64,000 bases of DNA from a virus. Lineage: Duplodnaviria; Caudoviricetes. The position numbers and the translations under genes are program-made. A model generated the notes under the pieces. It saw only the letters and a program-made list of their open reading frames with translations. It searched no databases and was not told where the DNA came from. Where the stretch lies: the IMG/VR virus record IMGVR_UViG_3300027809_000006, positions 4,411-68,410 of that record. One strand, written 5' to 3'. Positions 10,577-27,730 of the stretch are shown here, piece after piece; position 1 is the first letter of the stretch; each line of letters begins with the position of its first letter.

Positions 10577-10945
10577 ATGCATTCCGTTTGTAAATCGTTT
10601 GAAGTTGGTAAGCTTTACAAAAAGAAGGGTCATATCGGCCTTTATAAATGTCTGAGTATCCACCTATTCAGGAAAGACGAACAGTGTGGTGTAATGCAAT
10701 ATGTACGCCCTGATGGTGTTGTGTCCAGTGACCCTGAGGACAAAGGGGATATTCCTTCTGTGTTCAAATGGGATGACACATGGTATGAACACAAAGAGCC
10801 TGTTGTCATAAAGGAACGGAGACTCGTTCTCATTGATGGGAATGATGTTTACCTCCCTACGCAAAAATCGTCATACGGCACAGTCATAGGTGAAATCGAG
10901 GTTGTCATCACCGATAGTAAGCTTATTGATGTGAGGGTTGTGTGA
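10577..10945 (+). CDS. SH3-like small phage protein (untagged)
   Basis: FEVGKLYK start; WYEHKEP motif. Confidence 0.7.
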   Translation: MHSVCKSFEVGKLYKKKGHIGLYKCLSIHLFRKDEQCGVMQYVRPDGVVSSDPEDKGDIPSVFKWDDTWYEHKEPVVIKERRLVLIDGNDVYLPTQKSSYGTVIGEIEVVITDSKLIDVRVV

Positions 10946-11292
10946 TGTTCGAGGTCGGTAAGAAGTATAAGGGAGTAAACACAGGCATTATCTTTACTTG
11001 TGTGTGGGCAAACAATAAGCAAGCTACCCTTACATCTGATATTAGTGGTATGGCTATCCTTGTTGAATGGGATAGGTCTGGTCCTTACTATAAAGAGTAT
11101 ATTGAACCCCGTAAGGAATACTATAACGCCTATAAGGATAGTAAGGGAGTGGTTACTTATAGTAATCCCTATGATGATGTCAAGACCGCAGACGCTGTGG
11201 CAAGAGGATATCTTGATTACTATGGCCGCCTTATCATGACCCATCACAGTGAAACACATGTGGACGTAGAGTTCCACCTCAAGAGAAAGTAA
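10942..11292 (+). CDS. SH3-like small phage protein (untagged)
   Basis: MFEVGKKYKG start; YKEYIEPRKEYYNAY; overlaps the previous stop. Confidence 0.75.
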   Translation: MMFEVGKKYKGVNTGIIFTCVWANNKQATLTSDISGMAILVEWDRSGPYYKEYIEPRKEYYNAYKDSKGVVTYSNPYDDVKTADAVARGYLDYYGRLIMTHHSETHVDVEFHLKRK

Positions 11293-11302
11293 AATACTTA
11301 GT

Positions 11303-11716
11303 ATGTTGGCAGTAGTTTATGGCACCCTCAAGAAGGGTTATTCGAACAATGGTTTCCTTCGTAATGCTACCTTTGTGCAGGGTGGTATTGTCCGTGGACA
11401 CAAGCTTTATTATGCTGGCTTCCCTGTTGCTGCCCCATCTGAGGGTGATTGCATCAAGGTTGAAGTGTGGGATATTGGTGATCCCTCTACGGACACAACA
11501 GCAGCAGCTACCTTGAAGGGTATGGACCGCCTTGAAGGCTATCATGAGGATAGTGAGAGGGGTAGCATGTACCTCCGTAGGGGTGTAACTATCTTTGCTG
11601 ACGATGGCACTCGTCTTGAAGGGCAGATGTATGTTGGCAATGCCCGTACATGGCGAGACTTCAAGGGTATGAGGGAGATGGGTAAAGATGAAACTGGCAT
11701 CTATCAATGGCCCTGA
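11303..11716 (+). CDS. Gamma-glutamylcyclotransferase (AIG2/GGCT family)
   Basis: VVYGTLKKG N-terminal motif, KVEVWDI and MDRLEGY (catalytic Glu). Confidence 0.9.
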   Translation: MLAVVYGTLKKGYSNNGFLRNATFVQGGIVRGHKLYYAGFPVAAPSEGDCIKVEVWDIGDPSTDTTAAATLKGMDRLEGYHEDSERGSMYLRRGVTIFADDGTRLEGQMYVGNARTWRDFKGMREMGKDETGIYQWP

Positions 11717-11978
11717 GGATTTTCAGGTAGGTCGTGTTATTGTACGGAATAATCCCAGACAAAGTAAGTATCGAGAAGAGTATGAAATTGTAGGTTCTCT
11801 TATTAATGGACAAATGAAATTTGAGGCTAATTCCTACGAAGGGTCAGTACTACTTTCTAAAAATACTTATAATTTTCGTGTACCTGAGGATTTCGGTACT
11901 TTAAGTGTTTGGGGTTATTACACAAAGGAACTCCAATATGACCCCATGCAACAAGGAGACAAGGATGAGGATATCTGA
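11688..11978 (+). CDS. YDPxQQGD-tail family protein 2
   Basis: FQVGRVIVR; ends LQYDPMQQGDKDEDI*. Confidence 0.8.
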   Translation: MKLASINGPEDFQVGRVIVRNNPRQSKYREEYEIVGSLINGQMKFEANSYEGSVLLSKNTYNFRVPEDFGTLSVWGYYTKELQYDPMQQGDKDEDI

Positions 11979-12123
11979 TAACATTGATCTTGAAGCTCAA
12001 CTCTTTGTTGAGGGGCGTAAAGCAGCAGCTTCGGCTTATCGTAGAGCCGTTAAGAATGTGAGGAAAGCACATTGGGTAATCAAGAGTTCAAGGGGCCAAA
12101 TACTACATACATCCAATGTGTGA
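11965..12123 (+). CDS. Small hypothetical protein
   Basis: ATG 11965 inside the tail repeat, preceded by AAGGAG; MRISDNIDLEAQLFVEGRK. Confidence 0.5.
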   Translation: MRISDNIDLEAQLFVEGRKAAASAYRRAVKNVRKAHWVIKSSRGQILHTSNV

Positions 12124-12329
12124 ACCGTATTAACAACCGAACTAATATGTCCTATAGGTATTTAACCCTTGGGGCTATTTATCCATTAGTACATGACCAT
12201 GGTCGTGTCTATAGTATTATGACACCAAGGGGTGAAACACATTACCCTAGCCGACAATTCAAAATTGTAACAAACCCTGAGCTTCGATATGATCCGAACC
12301 AACAAGGGGATAGAGATGAGGATATTTAA
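12072..12329 (+). CDS. YDPxQQGD-tail family protein 3
   Basis: Ends LRYDPNQQGDRDEDI*; TTG start after GAGGA. Confidence 0.8.
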   Translation: MGNQEFKGPNTTYIQCVNRINNRTNMSYRYLTLGAIYPLVHDHGRVYSIMTPRGETHYPSRQFKIVTNPELRYDPNQQGDRDEDI

Positions 12330-13604: not shown

Positions 13605-13828
13605 CACAAAAAATGTTCCGTATCTCTCCACTTCCCTATAAGGACGGAGAGGTTTGCGTGGTGGATATCAGTGAGGAAGGGGCTGACTGGCGTACTCTTC
13701 CTACTCCATTTCCATCTCGTGAAGAAGCAGAGAAATTCGTTGATGAGATGATTAAGGGTTTTGAAATCCTTGAAGCTTATCAAGTGAAGAACCCTCCCTA
13801 TCTGTACCCTAAAAGGTTGTTGAACTAA
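13601..13828 (+). CDS. Hypothetical protein
   Basis: 75 aa, overlapping stop/start with both neighbours. Confidence 0.7.
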   Translation: MTQKMFRISPLPYKDGEVCVVDISEEGADWRTLPTPFPSREEAEKFVDEMIKGFEILEAYQVKNPPYLYPKRLLN

Positions 13829-14319: not shown

Positions 14320-14555
14320 GTGATTGTGATGTTTGGATAGATATTGACAGGGCCACTAGTACCAAGATTAAAAGGAAGTACATTGCAGGTATAACCTCCA
14401 GTGTCGAATATCGAGGTGTATACAGTGAAGGTGACACAACTGTATATGTTCTCAGTATATACATGTGCTACGGTGAAAGGTATACTATGGACTTCCCTGA
14501 TAGGAAATCTATGGTTGAATTCATTGAACATGCATTGATGGGAGTATACGGATGA
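14316..14555 (+). CDS. Hypothetical protein
   Basis: 79 aa, ATGA overlaps at both ends. Confidence 0.6.
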   Translation: MSDCDVWIDIDRATSTKIKRKYIAGITSSVEYRGVYSEGDTTVYVLSIYMCYGERYTMDFPDRKSMVEFIEHALMGVYG

Positions 14556-14902
14556 TCATTCTTCCATATCAAAGACCTTTACTCATTCTTTTGTTAGCTC
14601 TTATATTGAGCCTTACAATTCATGGGATATTTATCCTTGGATGTTTCATTATGTATCTTGACATGATGGCTCGGTATAAAGACTACCTTCGTATTAAGGA
14701 CACAAAGTTCACAGTAGCTATGACCTACAGGTTGGGTCATTCGTGGTGTGGAAGGGGTGTCTGTTTGTATGTGTGGCCCAAAGAGGCTAAACAATTGTAT
14801 GATGCATTAGGATATCGTTGGTATCACATCTTTCCTGATGGTTTCCCTTTAGTATTCACTAAACTTTCCTTTTGGAAATCTGTTGTGGGGTACAAAAAAT
14901 GA
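14552..14902 (+). CDS. Membrane-anchored hypothetical protein
   Basis: Hydrophobic N-terminus; SWCGRGV...ALGYRWYHIFPDGFP. Confidence 0.7.
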   Translation: MIILPYQRPLLILLLALILSLTIHGIFILGCFIMYLDMMARYKDYLRIKDTKFTVAMTYRLGHSWCGRGVCLYVWPKEAKQLYDALGYRWYHIFPDGFPLVFTKLSFWKSVVGYKK

Positions 14903-15246
14903 CATTCCATATTGGACAAAAAGTTGTTTGTATAGATGATAGACCACATGCTGGTACAAATAATGGTAGGGCTGAGTGGCGTAGTGTTGAAGAAGCTCCT
15001 GTAAATGGGCAAATTTATACTGTACGAAGTGTTCACACTGATCATTTAAATAACCCTGTATTGTGGTTTAATGAAATAAGAAGATCACAATATGCCATTG
15101 ATTCCCATGGACCCAAAGTTGGTTATGGTGTTTGGAGGTTCCGTCCCCTTGTAGACGACCATAAGGGTATGACCATTCTTCGCAGCATTCTCAACGATCC
15201 ACAACAATTCATCCGTAAGGATAAGTTCGATAAGGAAAAGGTGTAA
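14899..15246 (+). CDS. SH3-like small phage protein (untagged)
   Basis: ATG 14899; MTFHIGQKVVCIDD...GQIYTVR...RFRPLV. Confidence 0.8.
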   Translation: MTFHIGQKVVCIDDRPHAGTNNGRAEWRSVEEAPVNGQIYTVRSVHTDHLNNPVLWFNEIRRSQYAIDSHGPKVGYGVWRFRPLVDDHKGMTILRSILNDPQQFIRKDKFDKEKV

Positions 15247-15602: not shown

Positions 15603-15605
15603 CTG

Positions 15606-16137: not shown

Positions 16138-16629
16138 ATGAGAAACTTAGAAGATATGGTTGGTAAGACCTTTGTTGAAGTAGACGTTGGTGGAGTAGAT
16201 AATGCCTTCTTTGTCTTTCATACAGCTAGTGGAGAAAAATATAGGTTTATTCACCATCAGGATTGTTGTGAAAATGTTGATCTAATTGACTTTGATTACG
16301 ATGATCTTCAATTACTATTAAATAGTCCTATTCTTCTTGCTGAAGAACGCTCTTTGGAAAATGAACGTCCTGAAGGTTGGTATGAAGATGATGCTGAACA
16401 ATGGACCTTTTATTGTCTTGCTACTGTGAAGGGTCATGTTGACATTCGCTTCTTTGGTAGCTCTAATGGCTATTATGGTGTTGAGGTAGATGTAGAAAAA
16501 TGGGACCCTAATTTTGAAGTAAAATGGATGAATGGGATTACTAAAAAGGGACGATGGGTTCAAATACCTAAACCTTCAATATTAAAATATGATCCCACCC
16601 AACAGGGTGATAAGGATGAAGACATTTAA
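16138..16629 (+). CDS. YDPxQQGD-tail family protein 4 (conserved phage domain HHQDCCENV...WTFY...GSSNGYY plus tail)
   Basis: Recognisable widespread phage domain followed by LKYDPTQQGDKDEDI*. Confidence 0.88.
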   Translation: MRNLEDMVGKTFVEVDVGGVDNAFFVFHTASGEKYRFIHHQDCCENVDLIDFDYDDLQLLLNSPILLAEERSLENERPEGWYEDDAEQWTFYCLATVKGHVDIRFFGSSNGYYGVEVDVEKWDPNFEVKWMNGITKKGRWVQIPKPSILKYDPTQQGDKDEDI

Positions 16630-16655: not shown

Positions 16656-17333
16656 ATGGTTCAACATGCAGCAGTATCTACTACTTGCACGGCTTCTCAT
16701 ATTATCAATTGGGACATTCCTAATCTGAAGGCTGACAATCAGAAACTTCAGGTAAATGCCAGACTGTCAACTGTAGATTCTTTGATCAATCAGGGCTTCA
16801 AGCGTGACTTTGCTTTATTGTTCATCACAGTGACGGACAATCAGATGAAGCGTGGTGGACTGGATGAGTTCCTTCCTAAGTGTGGCTTTGAGCTTGCCTA
16901 TAAGGGTGAGAAGTTTGACGAAAATAAGGGTGAAGGTACACTCCATCGTCATAAAGAAACAGGTGATATTTACCTGTGGGCAACTTCTCCTAAGACCTAT
17001 CAGGAAGCTCTTGTGGCTTACAAGAAGGAACTCACGGAGTTGAAGGACAAGATCGATCCTCCGAAGAAGCCTGATCCGAAGCGTCAAGCCCTTCCCCGTC
17101 TTTTGTTGTCTGCCCTCCGTAAGAAGGGTTTTGTTGTTGACAACGCAAGTGTGGATAATCCACTGCATCAGGTTCTTACTGCTGGCAGTGAAACCAAGTT
17201 GGCCCGCTTCCTTACAGTTGAGTACGGCTGGGACCCACGCTCTATGGAGAAAACGTGGGGTGTCGCATGGACACAGAAAACCACTCGTGCTTTGAAGGAA
17301 GCTCACGAGGCATGGAAAAATGAGCTTATCTGA
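16656..17333 (+). CDS. Hypothetical protein
   Basis: 225 aa, AAAGGA SD, host-like codon use; no family recognised. Confidence 0.8.
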   Translation: MVQHAAVSTTCTASHIINWDIPNLKADNQKLQVNARLSTVDSLINQGFKRDFALLFITVTDNQMKRGGLDEFLPKCGFELAYKGEKFDENKGEGTLHRHKETGDIYLWATSPKTYQEALVAYKKELTELKDKIDPPKKPDPKRQALPRLLLSALRKKGFVVDNASVDNPLHQVLTAGSETKLARFLTVEYGWDPRSMEKTWGVAWTQKTTRALKEAHEAWKNELI

Positions 17334-17622
17334 TCCGTCATGGGAAATTGTTAATGGGAAGGACCTCCAGATAGGTGATGAGCTTATAGGGAAGTTCTTC
17401 CCTTGGGGTATAGACAAATTCTCTGTCCCTTGGATAGTTAAATCCTTACCTACTTTGACTACTCTATTTACTGAACCTCGTTGGAGAATTAGTATGAGAA
17501 ATTCAGAGTCAGGTAGTTTATTTCCTAGTTTCTCATATACCCTTGATCAACAGTTTGTCCGTAAGCTTAAAGAGTTGAAGTACGATCCAATGCAGCAGGG
17601 AGATACTGATGAAGACATTTGA
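17320..17622 (+). CDS. YDPxQQGD-tail family protein 5
   Basis: DLQIGDELIG; ends LKYDPMQQGDTDEDI*. Confidence 0.85.
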   Translation: MSLSDPSWEIVNGKDLQIGDELIGKFFPWGIDKFSVPWIVKSLPTLTTLFTEPRWRISMRNSESGSLFPSFSYTLDQQFVRKLKELKYDPMQQGDTDEDI

Positions 17623-17887
17623 AAGGATAACCCCTGATCAAATAAAAGTCGGTGATCGTATTTGTTCTAATTTGTGGGTCCCTAATGGTGGAGATAAACC
17701 ACCACCTCAACATACTCTTTTTTGGAAAGTAGTTAAGGTAGATGATTTACAGGTTTATATTACAGGTAATGGAATTGTTACTCCTGTTCACTACACAAAA
17801 GCTCAACACTCATGGTGGCGAGAAGACCTTTACCCACAACTAAAATATGATCCTATGCAACAAGGCGACAAGGACGAAGATGTCTAA
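17609..17887 (+). CDS. YDPxQQGD-tail family protein 6
   Basis: QIKVGDRIC; ends LKYDPMQQGDKDEDV*; its start codon lies inside the tail of protein 5. Confidence 0.85.
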   Translation: MKTFERITPDQIKVGDRICSNLWVPNGGDKPPPQHTLFWKVVKVDDLQVYITGNGIVTPVHYTKAQHSWWREDLYPQLKYDPMQQGDKDEDV

Positions 17888-18488: not shown

Positions 18489-19389
18489 TTACAAGAATGT
18501 ATGGAACGGTCGTCGTCATGCTTATATCTTTGCTACGGATGATGGTGTCATCCACGAACGTCTCGCCCTCCCGTGCTACGGAGAGTTGCGGAAATACGAA
18601 AGTACTCATACTGGTGACTGCACTCAGCCCTTAGATGGCAAGCCGGGTGATCTTCATTACCCCTTCCCTAAGCAAGGTAATCCGGTAGGTGTTATCTTCC
18701 CTTTCAATAATGATTGTGGAATGCAACACAACGATGGCAGTAAAACCGACATTATGTTCAAAGGGTTCTTTGGTGCTGAAAGCCCATGGCTCGGAAGAAT
18801 GGAAACTAATCGTACATTCCATCTTCTCAATGGTCGTATTCAGGGAGTTGAGTTCAAAGATGCTAACTTTGACCCTACGGTTATTGTTAACTTGTGTAAA
18901 TGTTTTCGCACTAACCTTGCTCGTGCAGGGGAATACGTAAAGCTTCTTGAAAATGGTCTGAATGTGAAGGAAGCTATTGCTGCTATCCTTCTTCATGGTG
19001 GTCGTATCGAGGCTGGTCTTTCTCAGCCGGGTGGGTACACTGTTGCTCACAACCTTTCCCTCAAGCGTCTATTTGCCGCACAACCTAATGATCATACTGG
19101 TGGTCTTTTCAAAGATCGTATCGATTATAATAGAAAGAGGATGCAGGATGTTTTCCAATACGATGAGACGCCTGTTGAGGGCTACGGATGGTTCTACAAA
19201 GGAATGCAAAAAGCTGGCTCTCCTGTATACCGGGGGCAAGCTATCGAAAACTTCAGCTACAAACGTTTTACTGACCGGGTGCAGCAAGTCTTCGCAGATC
19301 GCATCAAGCAGGAAAAGGACCCTGTACACGTTTCATACATCTGGACAACCACGAAGGGTGTAACCAATGATACCGTTAAAAGTAGGTGA
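18481..19389 (+). CDS. Hypothetical protein within the ligase cluster
   Basis: ATG 18481 (MVDYKNVWNGRRH) overlapping the previous stop; about 302 aa. Confidence 0.75.
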   Translation: MVDYKNVWNGRRHAYIFATDDGVIHERLALPCYGELRKYESTHTGDCTQPLDGKPGDLHYPFPKQGNPVGVIFPFNNDCGMQHNDGSKTDIMFKGFFGAESPWLGRMETNRTFHLLNGRIQGVEFKDANFDPTVIVNLCKCFRTNLARAGEYVKLLENGLNVKEAIAAILLHGGRIEAGLSQPGGYTVAHNLSLKRLFAAQPNDHTGGLFKDRIDYNRKRMQDVFQYDETPVEGYGWFYKGMQKAGSPVYRGQAIENFSYKRFTDRVQQVFADRIKQEKDPVHVSYIWTTTKGVTNDTVKSR

Positions 19390-19609
19390 CAGAGTAGAAG
19401 TCATATCCAGTGATATAGGACACAGAGAATTTATTGGTAAAATTGGTACTGTAATTAAGTGTAAAAATGGTAGTGGTTTTGACGATCTTTCTGCTGTTGA
19501 AATGGATAGTGGAGAAACGATTGTTATGTTTACTTACCGTTTTAAACCTATTGTGACTGAACTTAAGTACGACCCTTCACAACAAGGGGACAAAGATGAC
19601 GACATTTAG
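19367..19609 (+). CDS. YDPxQQGD-tail family protein 7 (KOW/SH3-like)
   Basis: LKVGDRVEVI...GKIGTVI; ends LKYDPSQQGDKDDDI*. Confidence 0.88.
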   Translation: MIPLKVGDRVEVISSDIGHREFIGKIGTVIKCKNGSGFDDLSAVEMDSGETIVMFTYRFKPIVTELKYDPSQQGDKDDDI

Positions 19610-19853
19610 TGTTGGTGATCGTGTAAGATATGAATATTACAATCGTCCTAATCATAGGTGGAATGGTATGATTGGTACAGTTACAGGATTTAGAGGTAGT
19701 AATGTAACTGTAAGTTGGGATAAAGGTTCTCGTTTATTAGATGAATCTCCTGATGAAGATTTCTTTTGTCACGTTCCTTGTAATCTTACAATATTAAACC
19801 TTGAATTAAAATATGATCCCACCCAACAGGGTGACAGAGAGGAAGATATCTAA
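19596..19853 (+). CDS. YDPxQQGD-tail family protein 8 (KOW/SH3-like)
   Basis: FSVGDRVRY...GMIGTVTG...VTVSWD; ends LKYDPTQQGDREEDI*. Confidence 0.88.
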   Translation: MTTFSVGDRVRYEYYNRPNHRWNGMIGTVTGFRGSNVTVSWDKGSRLLDESPDEDFFCHVPCNLTILNLELKYDPTQQGDREEDI

Positions 19854-20960
19854 ATGTGTGGACTTTTTGGAGTGGCCGGTCCCGGCTTACAGATGCCTGA
19901 CCTCAAAATCCTTAAGGACTTGGGGACAGTAAGTATGCTTCGTGGTACGGATGGTGCTGGTATTTTCCAAATCCGTTCCAATAGCAAGCATTACTCTCAG
20001 GAAGAAGGTTACAAAACTTGGGGTAACTGGATTGACCTTATGGGTGATGTGGAACGGAAGAAGTCTTCTCGTCTTATTCATTCAGTTAGTGTCGATGTGG
20101 TTATGTGTCATGTCCGTGCTGCCACTCGTGGTGCACTTAGGGATGAAAACTCTCATCCGTTTGCTTTTTCAAATCTGGTAGGTGCACACAATGGCACTCT
20201 CAAGGATAAGCGATATGAACATGTCTCAAAGACTGACAGTGAGCTTATGTTTGCTGATATCAACAATCGTGGTATGGAAGCAGTCCTTACTGAACTCGAC
20301 AAAGACTCTGCGTTTGCAGTCTCTGTGTTTGATCGTAAGCGTCAGGTGCTACGGTTTGCCCGTAACGAATTGCGTCCTCTTGCTTTTGCTTTTCTTAAAG
20401 ACCGTGGTGTAATGTATTGGGCATCCGAAAAGGATATGCTCAAGTATGTTCTCTATCGTGCTGGTGAAGAAGCATTATTTTTTAACCTTCGGGCAAATAA
20501 GATTGTTTCACTTAATCCTGAAATGATTACCAAAAAGAATATTGAGGATGGCCCATTGGTTAAAATCCTTAAGTGTGATGCTGAATTGGATCGTCCCCTT
20601 CCTACAACTTATCAACGAATTGAAGATGCTCGTAAGGCACGAGAAGAAGCAGAAGCTAAAAAAGCTGCTGGTGTTGAACCAACAGAAACTAACACTACTC
20701 AGATAACTACACAACAGATGAGTAATGTTGTTCCTTTTGTTCCTAACAAGGAGGATAAGGAAACAAAAAAGGTTGGTTCAACAACACGATTCTCGGTGGA
20801 GAGTCAGTATCGGAAATGTTCTTGCGGTGGCAGGACACTCGATCTTCTAGCACAAAGTCTGGCCAAGAGGGGGAAACACACTAAGTTTACATACAACTCT
20901 GATACTAATGTTTTCCGTTGTGATGGATGCCCAACAGATGCCAATGTTCAAACAGGGTGA
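19854..20960 (+). CDS. Class II (Ntn) glutamine amidotransferase
   Basis: N-terminal MCG nucleophile, RGTDGAG, HVRAAT, HPF, AHNGT, TDSE. Confidence 0.92.
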   Translation: MCGLFGVAGPGLQMPDLKILKDLGTVSMLRGTDGAGIFQIRSNSKHYSQEEGYKTWGNWIDLMGDVERKKSSRLIHSVSVDVVMCHVRAATRGALRDENSHPFAFSNLVGAHNGTLKDKRYEHVSKTDSELMFADINNRGMEAVLTELDKDSAFAVSVFDRKRQVLRFARNELRPLAFAFLKDRGVMYWASEKDMLKYVLYRAGEEALFFNLRANKIVSLNPEMITKKNIEDGPLVKILKCDAELDRPLPTTYQRIEDARKAREEAEAKKAAGVEPTETNTTQITTQQMSNVVPFVPNKEDKETKKVGSTTRFSVESQYRKCSCGGRTLDLLAQSLAKRGKHTKFTYNSDTNVFRCDGCPTDANVQTG

Positions 20961-21186
20961 TCGTATTTGGTCCATCATTAACGGTCGCCGAGAAGAAGCA
21001 ACCGTTGATCGTGTTTCAGATGACCGATTACACAGAGGTCGTACAGTTGTATGGGCTTATTGGGATAGTGATCAAAAACAAGGTAAAGATCGTGTAGGTC
21101 CATATTATACTGATATAGAAAGTTGTTATCATATAGAACTTCAATATGATCCCACCCAACAGGGTGATAGGGATGAAGACATTTAG
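20938..21186 (+). CDS. YDPxQQGD-tail family protein 9 (SH3-like); start approximate
   Basis: MFKQGDRIWS...VVWAYWD; ends LQYDPTQQGDRDEDI*. Confidence 0.85.
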   Translation: MPMFKQGDRIWSIINGRREEATVDRVSDDRLHRGRTVVWAYWDSDQKQGKDRVGPYYTDIESCYHIELQYDPTQQGDRDEDI

Positions 21187-21196: not shown

Positions 21197-21973
21197 ATGT
21201 CTATTACTGCAATGTTCTGCTACAATCAGGCTTCGGAAGGTGGTAGCAATCTGGCTGACGCACTTGGTATCCGCCGCATCAAGCACGGTAACTCCAAGTT
21301 TGTTCCTTCTGCTTCGAAGACTATCCTTAATTGGGGTGCTTCTTCTGAACGGTTCCCGGCTGCATATCGTGTGTGCAATATTCTGAACCACCCGGATCGG
21401 ATTGACACTGCCTGCAACAAAACTCGATCATTCCAAGCTTTTCAGGCAGCGGGTGTGTCCATTCCTGAGTTCACCACAGATCGTGCAACAGCTGTTCAGT
21501 GGCTGGAAGCTGGTAATATGGTGTTTGCTCGTACCCAACTGACGGCACATAGTGGTCGTGGTATTGAGATCATGGATCCCCACCATCCTGAGACATGGGA
21601 AGTGACTGCCCCTCTGTATGTCAAGTACATCCCCAAGAAGGATGAATATCGCATCCATGTATTCCGTGGTAATGTGATTGATGTACAGCGGAAAGGTCTT
21701 CGTGCTGAACTTCAGGGTACTGAAGGTGTAAACTTCAAGGTACGTAACCTTGCCAATGGCTTTGTTTATGTTCGTAATGATGGTCGTCAGACACCTGCTC
21801 GTGTACTTGAAGTAGGTCGTGCTGCTGTGGCTGCCCTTCAGTTGGACTTTGGTGCTGCTGACATCATCTATAATGAACGTAATAACCAAGCCTTTGCACT
21901 TGAGGTTAATTGTGCACCCGGCTTGACTGGCACTACTGTTGACAATTATGCACAGGCACTTTCACAGGTGTAG
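21197..21973 (+). CDS. ATP-grasp peptide ligase (RimK-like, phage type)
   Basis: ILNWG, CNKTRSF, HSGRGI, YVKYIPKKDEYRIHV, LDFGAADII, LEVNCAPG. Confidence 0.92.
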   Translation: MSITAMFCYNQASEGGSNLADALGIRRIKHGNSKFVPSASKTILNWGASSERFPAAYRVCNILNHPDRIDTACNKTRSFQAFQAAGVSIPEFTTDRATAVQWLEAGNMVFARTQLTAHSGRGIEIMDPHHPETWEVTAPLYVKYIPKKDEYRIHVFRGNVIDVQRKGLRAELQGTEGVNFKVRNLANGFVYVRNDGRQTPARVLEVGRAAVAALQLDFGAADIIYNERNNQAFALEVNCAPGLTGTTVDNYAQALSQV

Positions 21974-21974
21974 T

Positions 21975-22214
21975 ATGTTTAAGGTAGGTGATGAAGTAAT
22001 TGCTGATGCTAGTTTCGGAAGGACTATTAGTTGTCATATAACAAATATAACCAATAGTGATACAGTAATTTGGGGAACTTGGTATTGGGACAATGATCCT
22101 GCAAGGGTAAATCCAACCTATGGTTTCATGAATGCATGTGATTGTCAATTAGTAAGTGCAATTGAATTAAAATATGACCCCTTACAACAAGGGGATAAAG
22201 ATGAGGATATTTGA
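21975..22214 (+). CDS. YDPxQQGD-tail family protein 10 (SH3-like)
   Basis: ATG 21975; MFKVGDEVIA...VIWGTWYWD; ends LKYDPLQQGDKDEDI*. Confidence 0.88.
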   Translation: MFKVGDEVIADASFGRTISCHITNITNSDTVIWGTWYWDNDPARVNPTYGFMNACDCQLVSAIELKYDPLQQGDKDEDI

Positions 22215-22846: not shown

Positions 22847-23889
22847 TGACACAGCTTGCAACGTTTTATGACATCTTTCGTCAACTCAAGGTATACGGTG
22901 GAGACCGTGTCCGTGGGGATTATGGTGTTGAGATTGAAACTGAAACGGAAAAGAAATATGAGTATCCCAACCTTAAGTATTGGGGTGCCACAAAAGATAA
23001 TAGCCTTCGTGATTGGGGGGTAGAGTATGTTCTAAGGTCTCCTATGTCCATTCCTGAGCTGGAAAAAGCTCTTGTGGAATTTGATATTTGTGAGAAGAAG
23101 TACAAATTTAAGAAGGGTTCTATTTCTACCAGTGTGCATGTCCATGTCAATATGCTTAATGAAACTCCCCTGACATTGGCGAACTTCCTTACAACATATG
23201 CACTGATGGAAAATCTTCTTATCCGTTATAGTGGACCTGATCGTCTATCCAATTTGTTTTGTCTCCCCATTTGTGATGCAGAAGGTGTGAATACAAACTT
23301 GGTGAACATTCTTTCGAGTATAAATCGGAACCAATATACCAAGCTTCGTATTAGTGTGGATAAGTGCAAGTATGGAGCATTGAATCCTGCTACTTTGACT
23401 ACACTTGGTACGGTGGAAATCCGTTCATTCCGTGGTGAGACTGACACAAAAGTTATTCAGAAGTGGCTTGAAATCATTGACAAGATGAAGCAATTCGCTC
23501 GTCAATCTAAGCTTACCCCTCCTGATATCCTTAAGTTGTGGAAAGACAATCGTTCCACCTTGGTCAATATTATTTTCCAAGAGTATGCTGCTGAACTTCG
23601 TTATCGTGATCCTTTAACCAAGAAGGATATCACTGATGACCTTATTCGGCAGAATCTTAAGTATGCAGCAGACTTGGCTTGTGTCTCCAAAGATTGGACT
23701 AAGTTTGGTGTGTATCGTATCAAGCCGGTTTATAAAGAAAAGATCAAGGGTGCACTAGAAGAACTTTCCAATACCTACTTCAAGGTTCCATGGGATAGTC
23801 TGCCTTACCATGAACGTCTCGTTGTCATTGAAAAGTATCACCTTCTGAACCCTAACGTTCGTGTGGTGGATGCTGATGGTGATATTTGA
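22846..23889 (+). CDS. Putative amidoligase (glutamine synthetase-fold COOH-NH2 ligase)
   Basis: YGVEIETE, DNSLR..GVEYV, TSVHVHVN, TVEIRSFRG motifs. Confidence 0.88.
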   Translation: MTQLATFYDIFRQLKVYGGDRVRGDYGVEIETETEKKYEYPNLKYWGATKDNSLRDWGVEYVLRSPMSIPELEKALVEFDICEKKYKFKKGSISTSVHVHVNMLNETPLTLANFLTTYALMENLLIRYSGPDRLSNLFCLPICDAEGVNTNLVNILSSINRNQYTKLRISVDKCKYGALNPATLTTLGTVEIRSFRGETDTKVIQKWLEIIDKMKQFARQSKLTPPDILKLWKDNRSTLVNIIFQEYAAELRYRDPLTKKDITDDLIRQNLKYAADLACVSKDWTKFGVYRIKPVYKEKIKGALEELSNTYFKVPWDSLPYHERLVVIEKYHLLNPNVRVVDADGDI

Positions 23890-24172
23890 TTTAGGCACCA
23901 GAGTACGTCTTAAATGTGATAGTACACAAGGTGGTGATTACCCCGGTGAATATGGTTTGAAAGATCAAACCGGGGAAATTGTCAGTGCATTTGATACTTC
24001 TGATGGCACATACTTAGTACAATTTGATGAACCTGTCCCTTATAATACTGCGAATGAATGGGATGATGAAGATCAAAGTTGGTGGTGCAAAGTAGAAGAA
24101 CTTGAATTTGAAACACTCCCAATGTTAACATACGACCCTAATCAACAGGGCGATAAGGAAGAAGATATTTAA
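23876..24172 (+). CDS. YDPxQQGD-tail family protein 11 (SH3-like); start approximate
   Basis: IFDLGTRVRL...QTGEIV...YLVQFDE...WWCKVEELE; ends LTYDPNQQGDKEEDI*. Confidence 0.88.
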   Translation: MVIFDLGTRVRLKCDSTQGGDYPGEYGLKDQTGEIVSAFDTSDGTYLVQFDEPVPYNTANEWDDEDQSWWCKVEELEFETLPMLTYDPNQQGDKEEDI

Positions 24173-24173
24173 A

Positions 24174-24890
24174 ATGGCTACAATTCGTATTGGTGCAGAC
24201 CCCGAGGGTTTTATTGTAAATCCGGCTGGTGATTTTATTCCAGCCTTTGGTTTTGTGCCGGGTGACAAACAGAACCCCTTCAAGTTGGATGGTGGTGCTG
24301 TACAGGTGGATGGACTGGCAGTTGAGTTCAACATCGATCCTGTCACTAATGAGGATGACTTCAACAAAAATATTGTTAAGGTTGTTGCTCAGATTGACGA
24401 AATGGTTAAACAGGTCGATAAAGACTTGGACCTCCGTTGGACCCCTGTGGCCCGGTTCCGTCAGGCACAGTGGGATATGTCTCCTGAACAGCAGAAGATT
24501 CTTGGTTGTGATCCTGACTACAATATCAGGGGTGATGTTAATCCTAATCCTTCTGAGAAGTTGGAGAATGAACCTCTCCGTACTGCTGCTGGTCATATCC
24601 ACATTGGTTGGTTGGACAATCTGATTGAAGATGTCAATGATAATGCACACTTCCAGTTCTGCCTTGAAATTGCTCAGGGATTCTATGATGGTCGTCTTTC
24701 CACATATGTACCACACACACAGGAAGAGAGTGAACGGTTGTCCTATTATGGTCATTCCGGTGCATGGCGTCCGAAGAAGTATGGTGTAGAACTTCGTGCA
24801 CCTTCCAATCTGTGGGTCCGTTCGGAAGCTTCGCGTAAGTTGATCTTCAACGAGACAAGGAAACATTTCAATGAGCTTACAGGTCTTTAA
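24174..24890 (+). CDS. phiEco32-like COOH-NH2 ligase type 2
   Basis: IGADPEGF, DGLAVEFNI, GCDPDYN, LRTAAGHIHIG, RPKKYGVELRAPSN. Confidence 0.92.
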   Translation: MATIRIGADPEGFIVNPAGDFIPAFGFVPGDKQNPFKLDGGAVQVDGLAVEFNIDPVTNEDDFNKNIVKVVAQIDEMVKQVDKDLDLRWTPVARFRQAQWDMSPEQQKILGCDPDYNIRGDVNPNPSEKLENEPLRTAAGHIHIGWLDNLIEDVNDNAHFQFCLEIAQGFYDGRLSTYVPHTQEESERLSYYGHSGAWRPKKYGVELRAPSNLWVRSEASRKLIFNETRKHFNELTGL

Positions 24891-25146
24891 CACTTGGGAT
24901 GAAATCAATATCGGGGATGAGATATCATGGGGTGATGGTAAAAGTCATCAACTTAAAGTGACAGGAGTACCAAAGGGAGGTAGATCATTACTTACAGGTA
25001 TTCATAAGAAGGGTAAGTTTGGAGAAAACCCCGGTTGGTCTACTATTATAGCTGGTGATCTTGATAGTCTACTAGGTTGGAAAAAGATTATCACGGAACT
25101 AAAATATGATCCTATGCAACAAGGCGACAAGGACGAAGATATCTAA
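24871..25146 (+). CDS. YDPxQQGD-tail family protein 12
   Basis: INIGDEISW; ends LKYDPMQQGDKDEDI*. Confidence 0.85.
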   Translation: MSLQVFNTWDEINIGDEISWGDGKSHQLKVTGVPKGGRSLLTGIHKKGKFGENPGWSTIIAGDLDSLLGWKKIITELKYDPMQQGDKDEDI

Positions 25147-26294
25147 TGTGTGTTATCATTACACTGGCCGCAGGAGCGACTATTAATAAACTCCAATTGT
25201 TTAATGCAGTTTATAACAACTGGCATGGCTTTGGATTGATCCTTCGAGATGGCAACAATAAGATTGAGCTTATCAAAGAGTTCAGTCCTGAAGGTACTGA
25301 CCCGGAGAGAGTATGGAAGCTTCTTGAAGATAATAAGGATTGCATTCGTTATCTTCACGTCCGTCACTCTACTAAGGGTGCACAGGATGAGACGAATGTT
25401 CAGCCCTTTGAAGTTTACAACTCGTCATCACGGCAAGTGTTCTTCATGCATAATGGTACACTGACTGGCTTTGGTGCTGTCACTACCTATGGTAATCAGA
25501 ACCCAACTGGTAAGTCTGATACTCTTGACTTCTGTGAAAAGATTCTTCAACCGGCTCTCCTTCGTTGGTCTGGTGAAAATGGTAAGGCTGACTATACAGA
25601 CGATTTATTCTGGAAATTGGTTTGTGACAAACAGTGGACATATAACTCCACAGGTCTGTTTGTTTCCAACGATTTAGATATGAAGCGCGTCGGTAACGGT
25701 TGGTCTCTTTATAAGCATCCTGATGATAGTAGTGAAGGTGAAGTATGGACCTCCAACACTTCCTATTATGATAAGGTTCAGCGTGGACCAATGTTTCAAA
25801 AGTTGGAAACAGAACGCAAGGCACGAGAAGAAGCAGCAGCGGCACAAAAAGCAGCGGAAAACAAGAAGGAGGTAAACAGCGGCGGTTCTTCTGCACTTTA
25901 CGAAGACCTGAACGATGATATTCCCTTTCTTGGAGGCCATGGACACGGGTTTACTCTGGGCAACTCCGATGGTGTCAAGGAATGGGCGAACTCGAACTGT
26001 AATAAAAGCACCAAAGTACTCAATGCTATCCGAGATACTATCGATAGTTGGGATTTGGACGATCCTGATAACCTTGCTCGCCTTTGCAACGTTACATATG
26101 ATGAATGGGTAGCTGTTGTAGAAGCTGAGAATGAGTTCACTATCGCTGCTCTCCTTGAACATCTGTCGGATGAATTCCACAAGCTCAACCTTCGTAAGCG
26201 TCTTCTCGAAAAGAAGAACGACCGTCAGGAAGCTCGTATCCGTGAGTTCAATATCACAAAGAAGAATGAAGAGAATGTCTCAAAGGTTGCTTAA
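25146..26294 (+). CDS. Second class II (Ntn) glutamine amidotransferase
   Basis: N-terminal MCVII, NWHGFG, HVRHST, QPF, MHNGTL, SDT. Confidence 0.88.
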   Translation: MCVIITLAAGATINKLQLFNAVYNNWHGFGLILRDGNNKIELIKEFSPEGTDPERVWKLLEDNKDCIRYLHVRHSTKGAQDETNVQPFEVYNSSSRQVFFMHNGTLTGFGAVTTYGNQNPTGKSDTLDFCEKILQPALLRWSGENGKADYTDDLFWKLVCDKQWTYNSTGLFVSNDLDMKRVGNGWSLYKHPDDSSEGEVWTSNTSYYDKVQRGPMFQKLETERKAREEAAAAQKAAENKKEVNSGGSSALYEDLNDDIPFLGGHGHGFTLGNSDGVKEWANSNCNKSTKVLNAIRDTIDSWDLDDPDNLARLCNVTYDEWVAVVEAENEFTIAALLEHLSDEFHKLNLRKRLLEKKNDRQEARIREFNITKKNEENVSKVA

Positions 26295-26868
26295 GAGTGA
26301 TGATCATCTCATTTCGTTGAGTGATACAACACGAAACACTCCTGATTGGATGGAACTTAAAAGGGATACTCGTGATGAGTTCCCTATCTTTGTTACTGGA
26401 AGTATGCGCCGTTGGAGGGAGAATGCTCGCTTCCTCTCCGGTTGTAATTATTATGGGATGGCTCAGACATGGGGTGAAAACTTCATCTTGACTCGTCCTA
26501 GAGCACGACCCGGTCAGAACACCGTACCTGATCCGATTATGTTCCAGTTAGATAGTGACAAAACTAATTGGGAACAAACGGGTGAGTACTTCGATCAGGA
26601 TCGTTTGAGAGGTGTCGAGGGGGAGGTGTACGGTGTACCCCTTCGTAAATTAGCCCAACTAGATATTCATGAACAAAATGGTGATGGTGTCAATAGGCAG
26701 AAGCTTTATGTCAATCTCATCAACCCCAAACAGAAGCGTGCAAACGTTCGTTGCTTTGCCTATGTTGCCGATGTAGATGAGTATATGAAGACATATGCCC
26801 CTTCGGATAACCTTGAATATTGTGGCACTATCGCTACAGGTGGAGGTAAGGAGTTTTATCGTGCTTAA
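26275..26868 (+). CDS. Second gamma-glutamylcyclotransferase-like protein; start approximate
   Basis: IFVTGSMRR, VEGEVYGV, LAQLDIHE, C-terminal RQKLYV..CFAY pattern. Confidence 0.7.
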   Translation: MSQRLLKSDDHLISLSDTTRNTPDWMELKRDTRDEFPIFVTGSMRRWRENARFLSGCNYYGMAQTWGENFILTRPRARPGQNTVPDPIMFQLDSDKTNWEQTGEYFDQDRLRGVEGEVYGVPLRKLAQLDIHEQNGDGVNRQKLYVNLINPKQKRANVRCFAYVADVDEYMKTYAPSDNLEYCGTIATGGGKEFYRA

Positions 26869-26870
26869 CC

Positions 26871-27119
26871 TTGGAGATAAGAATGAAGATATCTGATTGG
26901 CTTCTCAGTCATTATAAAAAGAAGTTTGGTAATAATCTTGTTGTATTAAGTCATGAACATGGTTCTACTTGGAACGATGGTGGTGGATGGAACAACACTG
27001 TAATTAAAGTAGACGGTAAAATATTACAAATTTATATGCCCTCTGATTATAACACTAATAAATTAGAAGTAACTGAGATGAAGGCTGTACTCAAAGAGGT
27101 TTATGTACCAGCCAAATAA
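26871..27119 (+). CDS. Hypothetical protein
   Basis: 82 aa in operon context. Confidence 0.65.
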   Translation: MEIRMKISDWLLSHYKKKFGNNLVVLSHEHGSTWNDGGGWNNTVIKVDGKILQIYMPSDYNTNKLEVTEMKAVLKEVYVPAK

Positions 27120-27129
27120 GGATTTTAAA

Positions 27130-27480
27130 ATGGCAAAACATAATATTGGTGATATTGTATGTTATACAAATAAGAATGAACGACTTGTTGTATATGGTGA
27201 AGTTGTTGCAATTTGGAGGGATAGTTGGTCTGGTAGTAGGCAAGTTATGATTGAACCTTTGGATGAATCTTTTAATCATTCTCGTTTGTTTCATACTACA
27301 GTAAGTACTACTCAAGATTACCAATTTAATCCAAATAAGTTCGGTAATCATTCTGTTAATCTTCGCCGCTCACTTCGTAGATGTATTTGGGCACCTATGG
27401 TAAGTAAAAATCTTGTGGCAGCATATCCCTCAAAGGATTATGATCCTACTCAAAATGGTGACAGAGATGAGGACATTTAA
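27130..27480 (+). CDS. YDPxQQGD-tail family protein 13 (SH3-like)
   Basis: ATG 27130; HNIGDIVCY...YGEVVAI; ends KDYDPTQNGDRDEDI*. Confidence 0.85.
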   Translation: MAKHNIGDIVCYTNKNERLVVYGEVVAIWRDSWSGSRQVMIEPLDESFNHSRLFHTTVSTTQDYQFNPNKFGNHSVNLRRSLRRCIWAPMVSKNLVAAYPSKDYDPTQNGDRDEDI

Positions 27481-27730
27481 AGTTGGTGATCAGGTAGTAT
27501 TTATTAGGGATAATAGAGAAGGTGGCTCAAGTGTAGGGGCCAAAGGTGATGAAGCAACTGTTATAGAATATCATAATAACACTAGTGGGTACTATGCACG
27601 TATATTAAGAGTTAGAATGAAAAGTGGTCGTACTAAAGGGGCATCTTGGTGGTGTCATGAAGATGATATAAGGGTATCAGAATTAACTTATGATCCCAAC
27701 CAACAAGGAGATACTGACGAAGATATTTAA
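27467..27730 (+). CDS. YDPxQQGD-tail family protein 14 (SH3-like)
   Basis: ATG 27467 inside the previous tail; FKVGDQVVF...WWCHEDDIR; ends LTYDPNQQGDTDEDI*. Confidence 0.88.
   Translation: MRTFKVGDQVVFIRDNREGGSSVGAKGDEATVIEYHNNTSGYYARILRVRMKSGRTKGASWWCHEDDIRVSELTYDPNQQGDTDEDI

What the first reader, a model, noticed from the sequence alone, without database searches (positions are those of the whole stretch)
10577..27730. Expanded SH3/KOW-like small-barrel family, in tagged and untagged forms
Seen: most tagged ORFs begin with (F/L/I)-x-(V/I)-G-D-x-(V/I), e.g. FKVGDEV, FSVGDRV, LKVGDRV, IKVGDRI, LQIGDEL, INIGDEI, HNIGDIV, FKVGDQV, FKQGDRI, FDLGTRV, often followed by G.IG.V and an aromatic-rich strand (VWAYWD, WGTWYWD, WWC). 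Three ORFs with similar starts lack the tag (10577, 10942, 14899). Established: this start is typical of SH3-like/KOW beta-barrels. Inference: a hypervariable small-barrel scaffold with a constant handle, like an adaptor library (variable target-binding face plus common tag), possibly for anti-defence or host takeover.
Basis: partly seen in the sequence, partly recalled or inferred. Interest (0 to 1): 0.7.

Follow-up and report, generated by a model that had tools for sequence, protein, structure and literature searches.

The report
Tailed SH3-like barrel family in phage
A rhizobial-type phage carries about a dozen fast-changing small proteins with an SH3/KOW-like barrel, each ending in the same 13-residue acidic tail; this layout (variable binder, constant handle) is not described for phages and its function is untested.

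Summary
The window is a complete 68.4-kb phage of the phiM6/RHph rhizobiophage group. Fourteen + strand ORFs (9977-27730) end in the tail Y-D-P-x-Q-x-G-D-x-[DE]-[DE]-D-I.

Across 116 tailed proteins of the clade the strict motif occurs in 52%, against 1.6% of other ORFs.
- Two AlphaFold models, one per sequence flavour, are SH3-like barrels. The better one matches NusG/Spt5 KOW domains at Z 9.7-9.9. Pfam and PDB profile searches agree.
- About 10-11 of the 14 are barrels. ORF 16138 is DUF7448, 12072 is unresolved, and 9977 groups with untagged 14899. Untagged 10577 and 10942 show no detectable relation.
- In a sister phage whose enzymes are 74-95% identical, the barrels are 31-84% identical or replaced in the same slot. 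The tail stays constant and is kept by selection on the peptide.

"Variable barrel plus constant handle" is therefore supported; the adaptor or anti-defence role is untested.

The fold is common among uncharacterised small phage proteins. The tailed multi-copy arrangement was not found in the papers searched.

The parts
19367..19609 (+). Tailed barrel, flavour 1 (80 aa); protein that was modelled
   Evidence: AF2 pLDDT 86.5, five strands plus a 3-10 turn. Foldseek YorP 3e-4, PetP, eS4/NusG/Spt5 KOW. VIA NusG KOW Z 9.7, rmsd 1.1 A over 53 aa. HHalign to an independent flavour-1 profile 96%.
19596..19853 (+). Tailed barrel, flavour 1 (85 aa); its start lies inside the tail of 19367
   Evidence: HHalign 97%, E 3.5e-11, 66 columns. 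Weak DUF4314 hit. Overlapping start.
27413..27730 (+). Tailed barrel, flavour 1; likely true start 27467 inside the tail of 27103
   Evidence: HHalign 95%, E 1.9e-8, 62 columns. Start at 27467.
27103..27480 (+). Tailed barrel, flavour 1, with a longer C-terminal body; likely start 27130
   Evidence: Orthologue cluster of 10-13. Cluster profile against flavour 1: 96%, E 1.6e-9.
23861..24172 (+). Tailed barrel, flavour 1; start overlaps the end of the amidoligase gene
   Evidence: HHalign 76%, E 2.4e-5, 46 columns. No counterpart in the sister phage.
20908..21186 (+). Tailed probable barrel (W-A-Y-W-D strand)
   Evidence: BLAST to 21939 1e-4. Profile match covers the motif only. 45% identical in the sister phage.
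21939..22214 (+). Tailed probable barrel; likely start 21975
   Evidence: BLAST to 20908 1e-4. Profile match covers the motif only. The body is replaced in the sister phage.
17609..17887 (+). Tailed barrel, flavour 2 (92 aa); protein that was modelled; its start lies inside the tail of 17320
   Evidence: AF2 pLDDT 77.5, six strands. VIA EF-P domain I Z 6.1, rmsd 1.9 A over 55 aa; RimP, eIF5A, Tudor, Hfq, NusG. HHalign to flavour 2: 85%.
17320..17622 (+). Tailed barrel, flavour 2
   Evidence: HHalign 82%, E 1.1e-5, 71 columns.
24871..25146 (+). Tailed barrel, flavour 2
   Evidence: HHalign 53-65%. 63% identical in the sister phage.
11688..11978 (+). Tailed protein with a flavour-2-like start; weakly supported
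   Evidence: Aligns in A3, but HHalign only 8%. 69% identical in the sister phage.
9977..10270 (+). Tailed protein, possible third flavour (V-x-C-I-D type)
   Evidence: Cluster of 4. The match to flavour 1 covers the motif only (86% over 9 columns). 64% over 51 columns to untagged 14899.
12072..12329 (+). Tailed protein, fold unresolved; likely start 12147
   Evidence: No motif and no profile match. 84% identical in the sister phage.
16138..16629 (+). Tailed DUF7448 protein; not a barrel of this family
   Evidence: Pfam PF24240, 1.6e-23, 83.5 bits. HHalign 0.2% to both flavours.
14899..15246 (+). Untagged protein, possibly related to the 9977 flavour
   Evidence: HHalign 43% to flavour 1 over 44 columns and 64% to the 9977 cluster. 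The Atlas places it in a widespread unnamed phage family; its own model has low confidence.
10942..11292 (+). Untagged conserved gene upstream of GGACT; membership not supported
   Evidence: HHalign 2% or less. Atlas neighbours are ambiguous. Syntenic homologues exist in relatives.
10577..10945 (+). Untagged ORF; membership not supported
   Evidence: HHalign below 1% to both flavours and 9% to 10942.

Best explanation
The region holds a clade-specific multigene family with rapid turnover. Each member has three pieces: a small SH3-like (KOW/Tudor-type) five-stranded beta-barrel of about 55-75 residues, a short linker, and an invariant 13-residue acidic C-terminal peptide ending in a free aliphatic carboxyl terminus.

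Shown:
- The fold, in at least two sequence flavours.
- The statistical reality of the N-terminal strand motif.
- Peptide-level selection on the tail.
- Much faster divergence or replacement of the barrels than of the neighbouring enzymes.
- Grafting of the same tail onto an unrelated fold (DUF7448) and onto a host enzyme.

Inferred: the barrels are diversifying binding modules and the tail is a common handle read by one shared partner. The family would then work like a set of adaptors or clients of one machine. The partner is unknown. The leading candidates are components of the interleaved gamma-glutamyl/amidoligase enzyme set; a host factor is the alternative.
For: Fold:
- AF2 model of 19367: pLDDT 86.5.
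- Foldseek: YorP, PetP, eS4/NusG/Spt5 KOW, PHF1 Tudor.
- VIA: Z 9.9 and 9.7 to KOW domains; 18 chains at Z 8 or more.
- AF2 model of 17609: pLDDT 77.5. All its top VIA rows are SH3-like barrels, such as EF-P domain I at Z 6.1.

Sequence:
- Weak Pfam hits of 116 tailed proteins pile up on SH3_12, DUF4314, Chromo, UBE2O SH3-C and Agenet.
- The family profile hits YdhK, Spt5 KOW, L21e, PsaE and L24 among PDB sequences.
- Single window sequences match independent clade profiles at 75-97% for five proteins and 53-85% for three more. All negative controls score 1% or less.

Family size: 118 distinct tailed proteins in the loci fetched, and 52 further 50%-identity clusters among the 150 best hits of the whole-library search.

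Turnover: against a sister phage with primase 95%, ATP-grasp 92% and amidoligase 86% identical, the barrels are 31-84% identical, and four have no counterpart in their slot.

Tail under peptide selection:
- Synonymous codons vary freely at the invariant Q, G and D.
- Conservation is the same whether or not the next gene starts inside the tail.
- phiM6 has a divergent tail of the same character on 14 or more barrels.

Portability: the tail sits on DUF7448 and on HisS of two Rhizobium species, where the tail is 49% GC against 63% for the gene.
Against: - No binding partner, modification or phenotype is known, so the adaptor idea rests on architecture alone.
- Small SH3-like proteins are very common in phage early regions, so the fold by itself says little.
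- Several members (27103, 9977, 12072, 11688, 24871) are fairly conserved among relatives. They are stable paralogues rather than a hypervariable library.
- The amidoligase module occurs in tail-less phages (O4, Slicky01), so the module does not need these proteins.
- 43% of tails also hold the next gene's start codon. In Salinivibrio phage CW02 the analogous tail is largely a Shine-Dalgarno plus start element. A junction or translation-coupling role therefore contributes at least in part.
- Flavour 2 rests on a moderate model and Z of only 5-6.
Confidence: 0.5

Rival explanations
1. Junction cassettes without a common reader. The barrels are ordinary, functionally independent small SH3-like accessory proteins (DUF4314/YorP-like). 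They spread into gene junctions, and their shared 3' end persists mainly because it supplies the ribosome-binding site and start for the next gene and promotes recombination between cassettes.
For: - 48 of 112 tails contain the next ORF's ATG 11 or 14 nt before the tail's end, giving the recurrent M-x-T-F start.
- GGA, the best Shine-Dalgarno codon, is somewhat enriched when the next start lies inside the tail: 32% against 18%.
- In CW02 the tail's two Glu codons are GAG GAG in most of the eight copies (GAG GAA and GAG GAC once each), forming GGAGGAG 6-8 nt before the next start.
- The amidoligase's own last residues are shaped by the same overlap.
Against: - Codon entropy is near maximal at the invariant Q, G and D.
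- The peptide is equally conserved in the 62 tails that have no internal start.
- The Y-D-P-x-Q half has no role in translation initiation.
- phiM6 keeps the physicochemical pattern with a different sequence.
- The host HisS graft keeps the full peptide although nothing is translationally coupled downstream.
Confidence: 0.2
2. Substrates rather than adaptors. The tails are the acceptor or donor peptides of the interleaved ligases (two GS-like amidoligases, a RimK-like ATP-grasp, Ntn-amidotransferases, GGACT). The barrels would then be carriers or modifiers whose tail is extended, amidated or conjugated, by analogy with S6/RimK, tubulin tails or Pup.
For: - The enzyme set is confirmed: Amidoligase_2, two GATase-II, Peptidase_C26 and GGACT; COOH.NH2 ligase at 1e-56 and a RimK-like ATP-grasp at 7e-74.
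- The tailed genes span the same stretch as the module in the window and in the RHph phages, and flank GGACT in phiM6.
- A second GATase-II and GGACT occur in the tail-bearing clade but not in the O4 or Slicky01 loci examined.
- The tail has an invariant Gln and an acidic run.
- Tailed small barrels also sit inside the module of CW02.
Against: - The module is widespread without any tailed proteins.
- Papers that cite Iyer 2009 and Hardies 2013 describe a cell-wall role (PMC6256558, PMC5498523, PMC10580990); I could not read the two originals.
- The tail ends in Ile or Leu, not the Glu-Glu that RimK extends (own knowledge).
- The barrels are folded, unlike Pup.
- No mass-shift data exist.
Confidence: 0.2
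3. Replisome or SSB-tail mimicry. The acidic tail with a terminal hydrophobic residue docks where acidic C-terminal tails of replication proteins dock (T7 gp2.5 and gp4 on the polymerase; bacterial SSB tips on their clients). This would bring the barrels to the replisome or let them compete there.
For: - The phage has a T7-type primase-helicase and polymerase next to the region.
- A 197-aa protein (33430-34023) ends in an SSB-tip-like acidic D-D-I-P-W.
- The second GATase-II carries the near-identical string internally at 25908-25928.
- The later check on e1-3433680 named the T7 tails as the nearest thing in print.
Against: - The tail lacks the Pro-aromatic tip of SSB tails.
- Fourteen competing copies seem wasteful.
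- Nothing links SH3-like barrels to this site.
- The identity of 33430-34023 as an SSB was not confirmed.
Confidence: 0.08

Closest known systems
KOW / SH3-like small barrels (NusG and Spt5 KOW, ribosomal L24, eS4 and L21e, PetP, PsaE, Tudor domains)
   Same: Same fold and the same first-strand signature (hydrophobic-x-V-G-D-x-V, then G-x-x-G-x-V). Z 9.7-9.9 and rmsd 1.1 A to NusG KOW. Profile hits to Spt5 KOW, L24, L21e and PsaE.
   Different: These are stand-alone proteins of 60-125 aa and are not part of a transcription or ribosomal protein. No Pfam model is reached at its curated cut-off. They carry an acidic C-terminal peptide that none of the known families has.
Uncharacterised small phage SH3-like proteins (YorP of SPbeta, DUF4314, DUF4926)
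   Same: Best structural neighbours are YorP (E 3e-4, Z 8.7) and many 60-80 aa phage proteins in BFVD, including a DUF4314 protein of phage CW02. Weak DUF4314 sequence hits.
   Different: Those are described as single genes with no shared tail. Here 14 copies per genome share one invariant tail and turn over rapidly in fixed slots.
SspB-type protease adaptors (own knowledge, not tested)
   Same: Same architecture: a small beta-rich substrate-binding domain, a flexible linker and a short C-terminal docking peptide that tethers cargo to one machine.
   Different: No sequence relation was tested or claimed. SspB is a single gene whose docking peptide is basic and hydrophobic, not acidic. No protease link was found here.
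Poxvirus ankyrin/PRANC (F-box-like) multigene families (own knowledge)
   Same: A viral multigene family with a variable binding domain plus a short constant C-terminal motif that plugs into one host machine. This is the closest analogue of an adaptor library.
   Different: Eukaryotic virus, different folds, and a known partner (SCF ligase). Here the partner is unknown.
Phage amidoligase / gamma-glutamyl module (Iyer et al. 2009; Hardies et al. 2013; described in PMC6256558 and PMC5498523)
   Same: The tailed genes are interleaved with this module. Its enzymes are confirmed in the window.
   Different: The papers I could read do not mention tailed small proteins and propose cell-wall modification. 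Module-bearing phages O4 and Slicky01 have no tails.

Membership tests
SH3-like barrel fold (structural class) | Five-stranded, partly open beta-barrel of about 60 residues with a 3-10 turn before the last strand | tested here: met
   DSSP of the 19367 model gives strands 9-12, 26-33, 41-46, 51-55 and 59-61, with a turn at 56-58. Top Foldseek and VIA rows are all SH3-like barrels. The flavour-2 model has six strands and only SH3-like neighbours at Z 5-6.
SH3-like barrel fold (structural class) | All 17 proteins of the finding share the fold | tested here: not met
   16138 is DUF7448. 12072, 10577 and 10942 give no profile match.
KOW motif family (Pfam PF00467 and KOW-named models) | Match to a curated KOW model at its gathering score | tested here: inconclusive
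   No KOW model is among the 25 most-hit Pfam families at E 0.5 or less. Sub-threshold profile hits to Spt5 KOW at 5e-4 and L24 among PDB sequences. Structural Z 9.7-9.9.
DUF4314 (PF14192) | Score at or above the 27-bit cut-off | tested here: not met
   The window's only hit, 19596, scores 16.3 bits at E 0.009. Five of 116 clade members hit weakly, best E 0.0048.
DUF7448 (PF24240), for ORF 16138 only | Score above the 27-bit cut-off over the full model | tested here: met
   83.5 bits, model positions 1-104 of 104.
Pup-like modifier system | Intrinsically disordered small modifier ending in G-G-Q/E at the extreme C-terminus | tested here: not met
   The bodies are folded barrels. The tail ends D-I, and the invariant Gln lies nine residues from the end.
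Pup-like modifier system | GS-fold ligase and deamidase encoded nearby | tested here: inconclusive
   Amidoligase_2, a COOH.NH2 ligase and Ntn-amidotransferases are adjacent, but no relation to PafA or Dop was tested.
Adaptor with a C-terminal docking peptide (SspB-like logic) | The tail binds one defined partner while the body binds cargo | not testable with these tools
This needs pull-downs.

The most novel reading that the evidence does not exclude
The barrels are a diversifying library of target binders whose common acidic tail plugs them, and whatever they hold, into the phage's own gamma-glutamyl/amidoligase machinery. That would be a phage-encoded protein-tail modification or conjugation system with many interchangeable receptor subunits. 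Some rhizobia would then have answered by grafting the same tail onto histidyl-tRNA synthetase as a decoy or tripwire.
Probability: 0.08. Interest if true: 0.9.

Novelty: new variant of a known kind. Interest (0 to 1): 0.6.

Why it matters
Small SH3-like proteins are among the commonest unexplained genes of phage early regions. Here a whole clade has turned them into a tailed, rapidly diversifying set. That gives an experimental handle: one 13-residue peptide can be used as bait to find the shared partner, and fourteen natural barrels per genome can be used to find targets.

If the tail is read by the long-unexplained amidoligase module, that module would at last have a testable substrate. The host HisS graft would offer a natural genetic test.

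If the tail has no reader, the family remains a clear example of cassette-like gene turnover at fixed junctions with overlapping start signals.

Tried and rejected
- Iterated HMM searches from BLAST clusters did not unite the family: 13 of 122 recruited. Only profile-profile comparison and folds did.
- Tag-stripped all-against-all BLAST within the window gave only marginal pairs, best 1e-4.
- The search for homologous proteins on the 19367 barrel found only itself and one 75% relative. Alignments were therefore built from clade paralogues.
- The megablast DNA search against phage records found almost nothing.
- Unsupervised search for shared C-termini in Pseudomonas phage O4 and Pseudoalteromonas phage Slicky01 found none. 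Vibrio phage 275E43-1 has KOW-like small ORFs but no shared tail.
- Atlas look-ups for untagged 14899 and 10942 were uninformative or ambiguous. PHROGs gave nothing for 9977, 10577, 10942 or 27130.
- A purely DNA-level explanation of the tail was considered and rejected for this clade, though it holds largely for CW02.
- The AAA ATPase 12330-13604 was considered as the tail reader and dropped because it is absent from the RHph and phiM6 loci.
- Iyer 2009 (PMC3268129) and Hardies 2013 (PMC3754069) are not held. Their content is cited only through papers that quote them.
- Two literature searches for tailed phage small-protein families or DUF4314 in phages found nothing relevant.
- A scan of 401 genomes of the same family as the Rhizobium host genome for the short tail pattern found it only at hisS of the centre genome.


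Full report
**What the window is.** It is positions 4411-68410 of a complete 68,410-bp IMG/VR phage record. The nearest named relatives are Rhizobium phages RHph_N3_19, RHph_I3_11 and RHph_N3_13 and Sinorhizobium phage phiM6. Their primase-helicase is about 68-71% identical to ORF 28037-29587. A 67.9-kb scaffold binned into a 'Rhodovulum' MAG (QFPW01000021.1; loci L034, L035, L039) is a much closer sister phage, with primase 95%, ATP-grasp 92% and amidoligase 86% identical.

**The observation.** Fourteen + strand ORFs between 9977 and 27730 end in Y-D-P-x-Q-Q-G-D-x-[DE]-[DE]-D-I followed by a stop. There are none elsewhere in the genome and none for a reversed control pattern.

To test whether the motif exceeds chance I collected the family:
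- A degenerate DNA pattern for the tail found 26 loci from about ten IMG/VR contigs. Four of those contigs are 65-70 kb long.
- The two RHph phages carry 14 and 16 copies.
- Together this gives 118 distinct tailed proteins, median length 94 aa.

The strict motif [FLIVMYW]-x-[VILM]-G-D-x-[VILMF] occurs in the first 50 residues of 52% of them. It occurs in 1.6% of 1015 untagged ORFs from the same DNA and 0.5% of shuffled sequences. A looser form gives 84% against 13%. In the window the counts are 7 of 14 strict and 11 of 14 loose.

**Is it one SH3/KOW-like family?** Plain sequence searches barely connect the members. The best tag-stripped BLAST pair in the window scores 1e-4, the 118 proteins fall into 62 BLAST clusters, and iterated HMMs stall. 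Four independent lines nevertheless agree on the fold.

1. Scanning all 116 members against Pfam at a lax threshold piles the weak hits onto SH3-type families: SH3_12 (9 members, best 6e-5), DUF4314 (5), Chromo, UBE2O SH3-C, Agenet, PSA_CBD, BPL_C and Spin/Ssty.
2. A profile of 33 flavour-1 members (A2) hits YdhK, Spt5 KOW, Mind bomb, L21e, PsaE, L24, Pif1 SH3, Xrn1 SH3 and NusG among PDB sequences. In the 1.84-billion-protein library the same profile finds long multi-repeat SH3_15, SH3_12, DUF4314 and DUF1918 proteins through its barrel part.
3. AlphaFold on A2, with ORF 19367 as the query, gives pLDDT 86.5 with five strands and a 3-10 turn.
   - Foldseek returns YorP (3e-4), PetP, the eS4, NusG and Spt5 KOW domains and the PHF1 Tudor domain.
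   - VIA-align gives Z 9.9 to DSIF KOW6-7 and Z 9.7 to T. maritima NusG KOW (rmsd 1.1 A over 53 residues). Eighteen chains score Z 8 or more.
4. A second sequence flavour has a leader and then a G-P-D-D-type turn before the V-G-D strand. Alignment A3 holds 17 such sequences. The model of ORF 17609 has pLDDT 77.5 and six strands. Its neighbours are weaker but uniformly SH3-like: EF-P domain I at Z 6.1 (rmsd 1.9 A over 55 residues), RimP, eIF5A, Tudor, Hfq, NusG and FeoA.

Only two folding jobs were allowed. I therefore placed the remaining proteins by HHalign of single window sequences against profiles built only from non-window members of other BLAST clusters, with tails removed. Cluster-level profiles followed.
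- Flavour 1: 19596 (97%), 19367 (96%), 27413 (95%), 23861 (76%) and the 27103 cluster (96%).
- Motif-only matches: 20908 and 21939, which are related to each other.
- Flavour 2: 17609 (85%), 17320 (82%), 24871 (53-65%) and 11688 (8%, weak).
- Possible third flavour: the 9977 cluster matches flavour 1 only over the motif, but matches untagged 14899 at 64% over 51 columns.
- No match: 16138 (a full-length DUF7448), 12072, and untagged 10577 and 10942.
- Controls: six unrelated small ORFs all scored 1% or less.

The honest count is about 10-11 barrels among the 14 tailed proteins and at most one of the three untagged ORFs.

**Variable body, constant tail.** Against the sister phage, the tag-stripped bodies compare as follows:

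| ORF | Identity in sister phage |
|---|---|
| 9977 | 78% |
| 11688 | 69% |
| 12072 | 84% |
| 16138 | 75% |
| 24871 | 63% |
| 27103 | 54% |
| 20908 | 45% |
| 19596 | 39% |
| 27413 | 31% |
| 21939 | only its leader is kept |
| 17320, 17609, 19367, 23861 | no counterpart; their slots hold other tailed ORFs |

The flanking enzymes are 74-95% identical in the same comparison.

The tail is kept by selection on the peptide:
- The invariant Q, G and D use all their synonymous codons, and all three stop codons occur.
- Conservation is the same in the 50 tails that contain the next gene's start and in the 62 that do not.
- phiM6 carries a different tail of the same character on at least 14 small ORFs with the same N-terminal motif: Tyr, Gln four residues later, an acidic run and a terminal Leu or Ile.

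There is also a DNA-level layer. In 48 of 112 tails the acidic codons supply an out-of-frame ATG 11 or 14 nt before the end of the tail. The next protein then starts M-x-T-F. In the window this applies to 17609, 19596 and the probable true start of the last barrel at 27467. Part of the first motif position is thus forced by the overlap.

**Context.** The tailed genes are interleaved with the enzymes below.

| Enzyme | Window coordinates |
|---|---|
| GGACT | 11303-11716 |
| Peptidase_C26 | 17847-18488 |
| Ntn-type amidotransferase 1 | 19854-20960 |
| RimK-like ATP-grasp | 21197-21973 |
| Amidoligase_2 | 22846-23889 |
| COOH.NH2 ligase | 24174-24890 |
| Ntn-type amidotransferase 2 | 25146-26294 |

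This is the phage amidoligase module. Papers that cite Iyer 2009 and Hardies 2013 ascribe to it a cell-wall or superinfection-exclusion role (PMC6256558; PMC5498523; PMC10580990). I could not read the two originals.

The module occurs in 110 phage records. What I found in other module-bearing phages:
- Pseudomonas phage O4 and Pseudoalteromonas phage Slicky01 have no shared tails.
- Salinivibrio phage CW02 has eight small ORFs inside its module that begin F-x-x-G-Q/H-x-V and end P-x-L-L-E-E-N-V. One of them is a BFVD neighbour of my model. In that tail the two Glu codons are GAG GAG in most of the eight copies, forming a Shine-Dalgarno sequence just before the next start, so the tail is largely a coupling element.
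- Pseudoalteromonas phage HP1 has three paralogues with a long shared C-terminus.

Small tailed barrels therefore recur around this module, but the meaning of the tail may differ between lineages.

**Host graft.** A strict tail pattern scanned over one genome of each of 185,579 species hit mis-binned phage contigs and exactly two Rhizobium genomes. In both, the hit is the C-terminus of histidyl-tRNA synthetase, upstream of hisZ and hisG.
- The 20-residue extension is absent from 29 other Rhizobiales HisS proteins, including a 95%-identical one.
- The short tail pattern was not found in the other 400 genomes searched from the same family as that Rhizobium genome.
- The extension is 49% GC in a 63% GC gene.

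The graft shows the tail is portable and is tolerated on an essential enzyme. That argues against a constitutive degron.

**Reading.** What is shown: a real, clade-wide, fast-evolving family of SH3-like barrels with a selected constant tail. What is inferred: the barrels are binding modules and the tail a common handle. I give about 0.85 to the structural and family statement and about 0.35 to the adaptor logic, hence 0.5 overall.

The rivals are junction cassettes without a reader (0.2), tails as ligase substrates (0.2) and replisome-tail mimicry (0.08). The last is prompted by a 197-aa protein ending in an SSB-tip-like string and by the same string inside the second amidotransferase.

**Novelty.** The fold and the enzyme module are known. 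The tailed multi-copy arrangement was not found in the papers searched, but this scan had already seen it on related DNA. I class it as a new variant of a known kind.

Noticed in passing
L036:6179-7750 (R. binxianense BJ04 chromosome) and L033, ORF ending at 6888 on the - strand (Rhizobium sp. L43): Host histidyl-tRNA synthetase ends in a 20-residue extension carrying the complete phage tail. It is absent from 29 other Rhizobiales HisS proteins, including a 95%-identical one. The extension is 49% GC in a 63% GC gene, which points to acquisition from a phage. The scan had seen this before (e1-3433680).
   Followed up: yes
window 17609-17622, 19596-19609, 27467-27480, 10257-10270, 11965-11978: The last 11-14 nt of the tail, read in another frame, supply the ATG and the first codons (M-x-T-F or M-x-I-F) of the next ORF. 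This holds for 48 of 112 tails across the clade. The whole tail in the alternative frame reads M-I-P-L-N-K, which explains spurious long N-terminal extensions in ORF calls.
   Followed up: yes
window 33430-34023 and 25908-25928: A 197-aa protein ends in E-E-L-N-D-D-I-P-W, like the tip of bacterial SSB tails. The second Ntn-amidotransferase (25146-26294) carries the near-identical E-D-L-N-D-D-I-P-F internally, between its two halves. PHROGs did not name the 197-aa protein.
   Followed up: partly
L072 (Salinivibrio phage CW02, 1-8049) and L073 (Pseudoalteromonas phage HP1): CW02 gp1, 4, 6, 7, 11, 13, 14 and 17 are small barrel-like proteins inside the amidoligase module, and all end P-x-L-L-E-E-N-V. 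The Glu-Glu codons are mostly GAG GAG, forming a Shine-Dalgarno sequence for the next gene. HP1 has three paralogues sharing about 30 C-terminal residues.
   Followed up: partly
L034, L035, L039 (QFPW01000021.1, 67,886 bp): A scaffold filed under a Rhodovulum sulfidophilum MAG is a near-complete sister phage of the window (13 tails, primase 95% identical). It is almost certainly mis-binned. Short contigs in a Pseudobdellovibrionaceae MAG and a Cellvibrionaceae MAG also carry tails.
   Followed up: partly
window 22846-23889 (C-terminus): The amidoligase ends ...D-A-D-G-D-I (phiM6: ...S-E-E-D-I). This resembles the tail's end because the next barrel's start (M-V-I-F) overlaps it in another frame.
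   Followed up: partly
window 12330-13604: A 424-aa AAA-type ATPase (phrog_2376, 1e-93) with a poly-acidic stretch sits among the tailed genes. It is present in the sister phage and in one IMG/VR contig but absent from the RHph and phiM6 loci, so it is an accessory gene rather than part of the conserved set.
   Followed up: partly
window 10942-11292: This untagged 116-aa gene is kept directly upstream of GGACT in RHph_I3_11 and several IMG/VR relatives, and probably in phiM6 (gene 98, HHalign 54%). It looks like a conserved partner of GGACT rather than a member of the variable family.
   Followed up: partly
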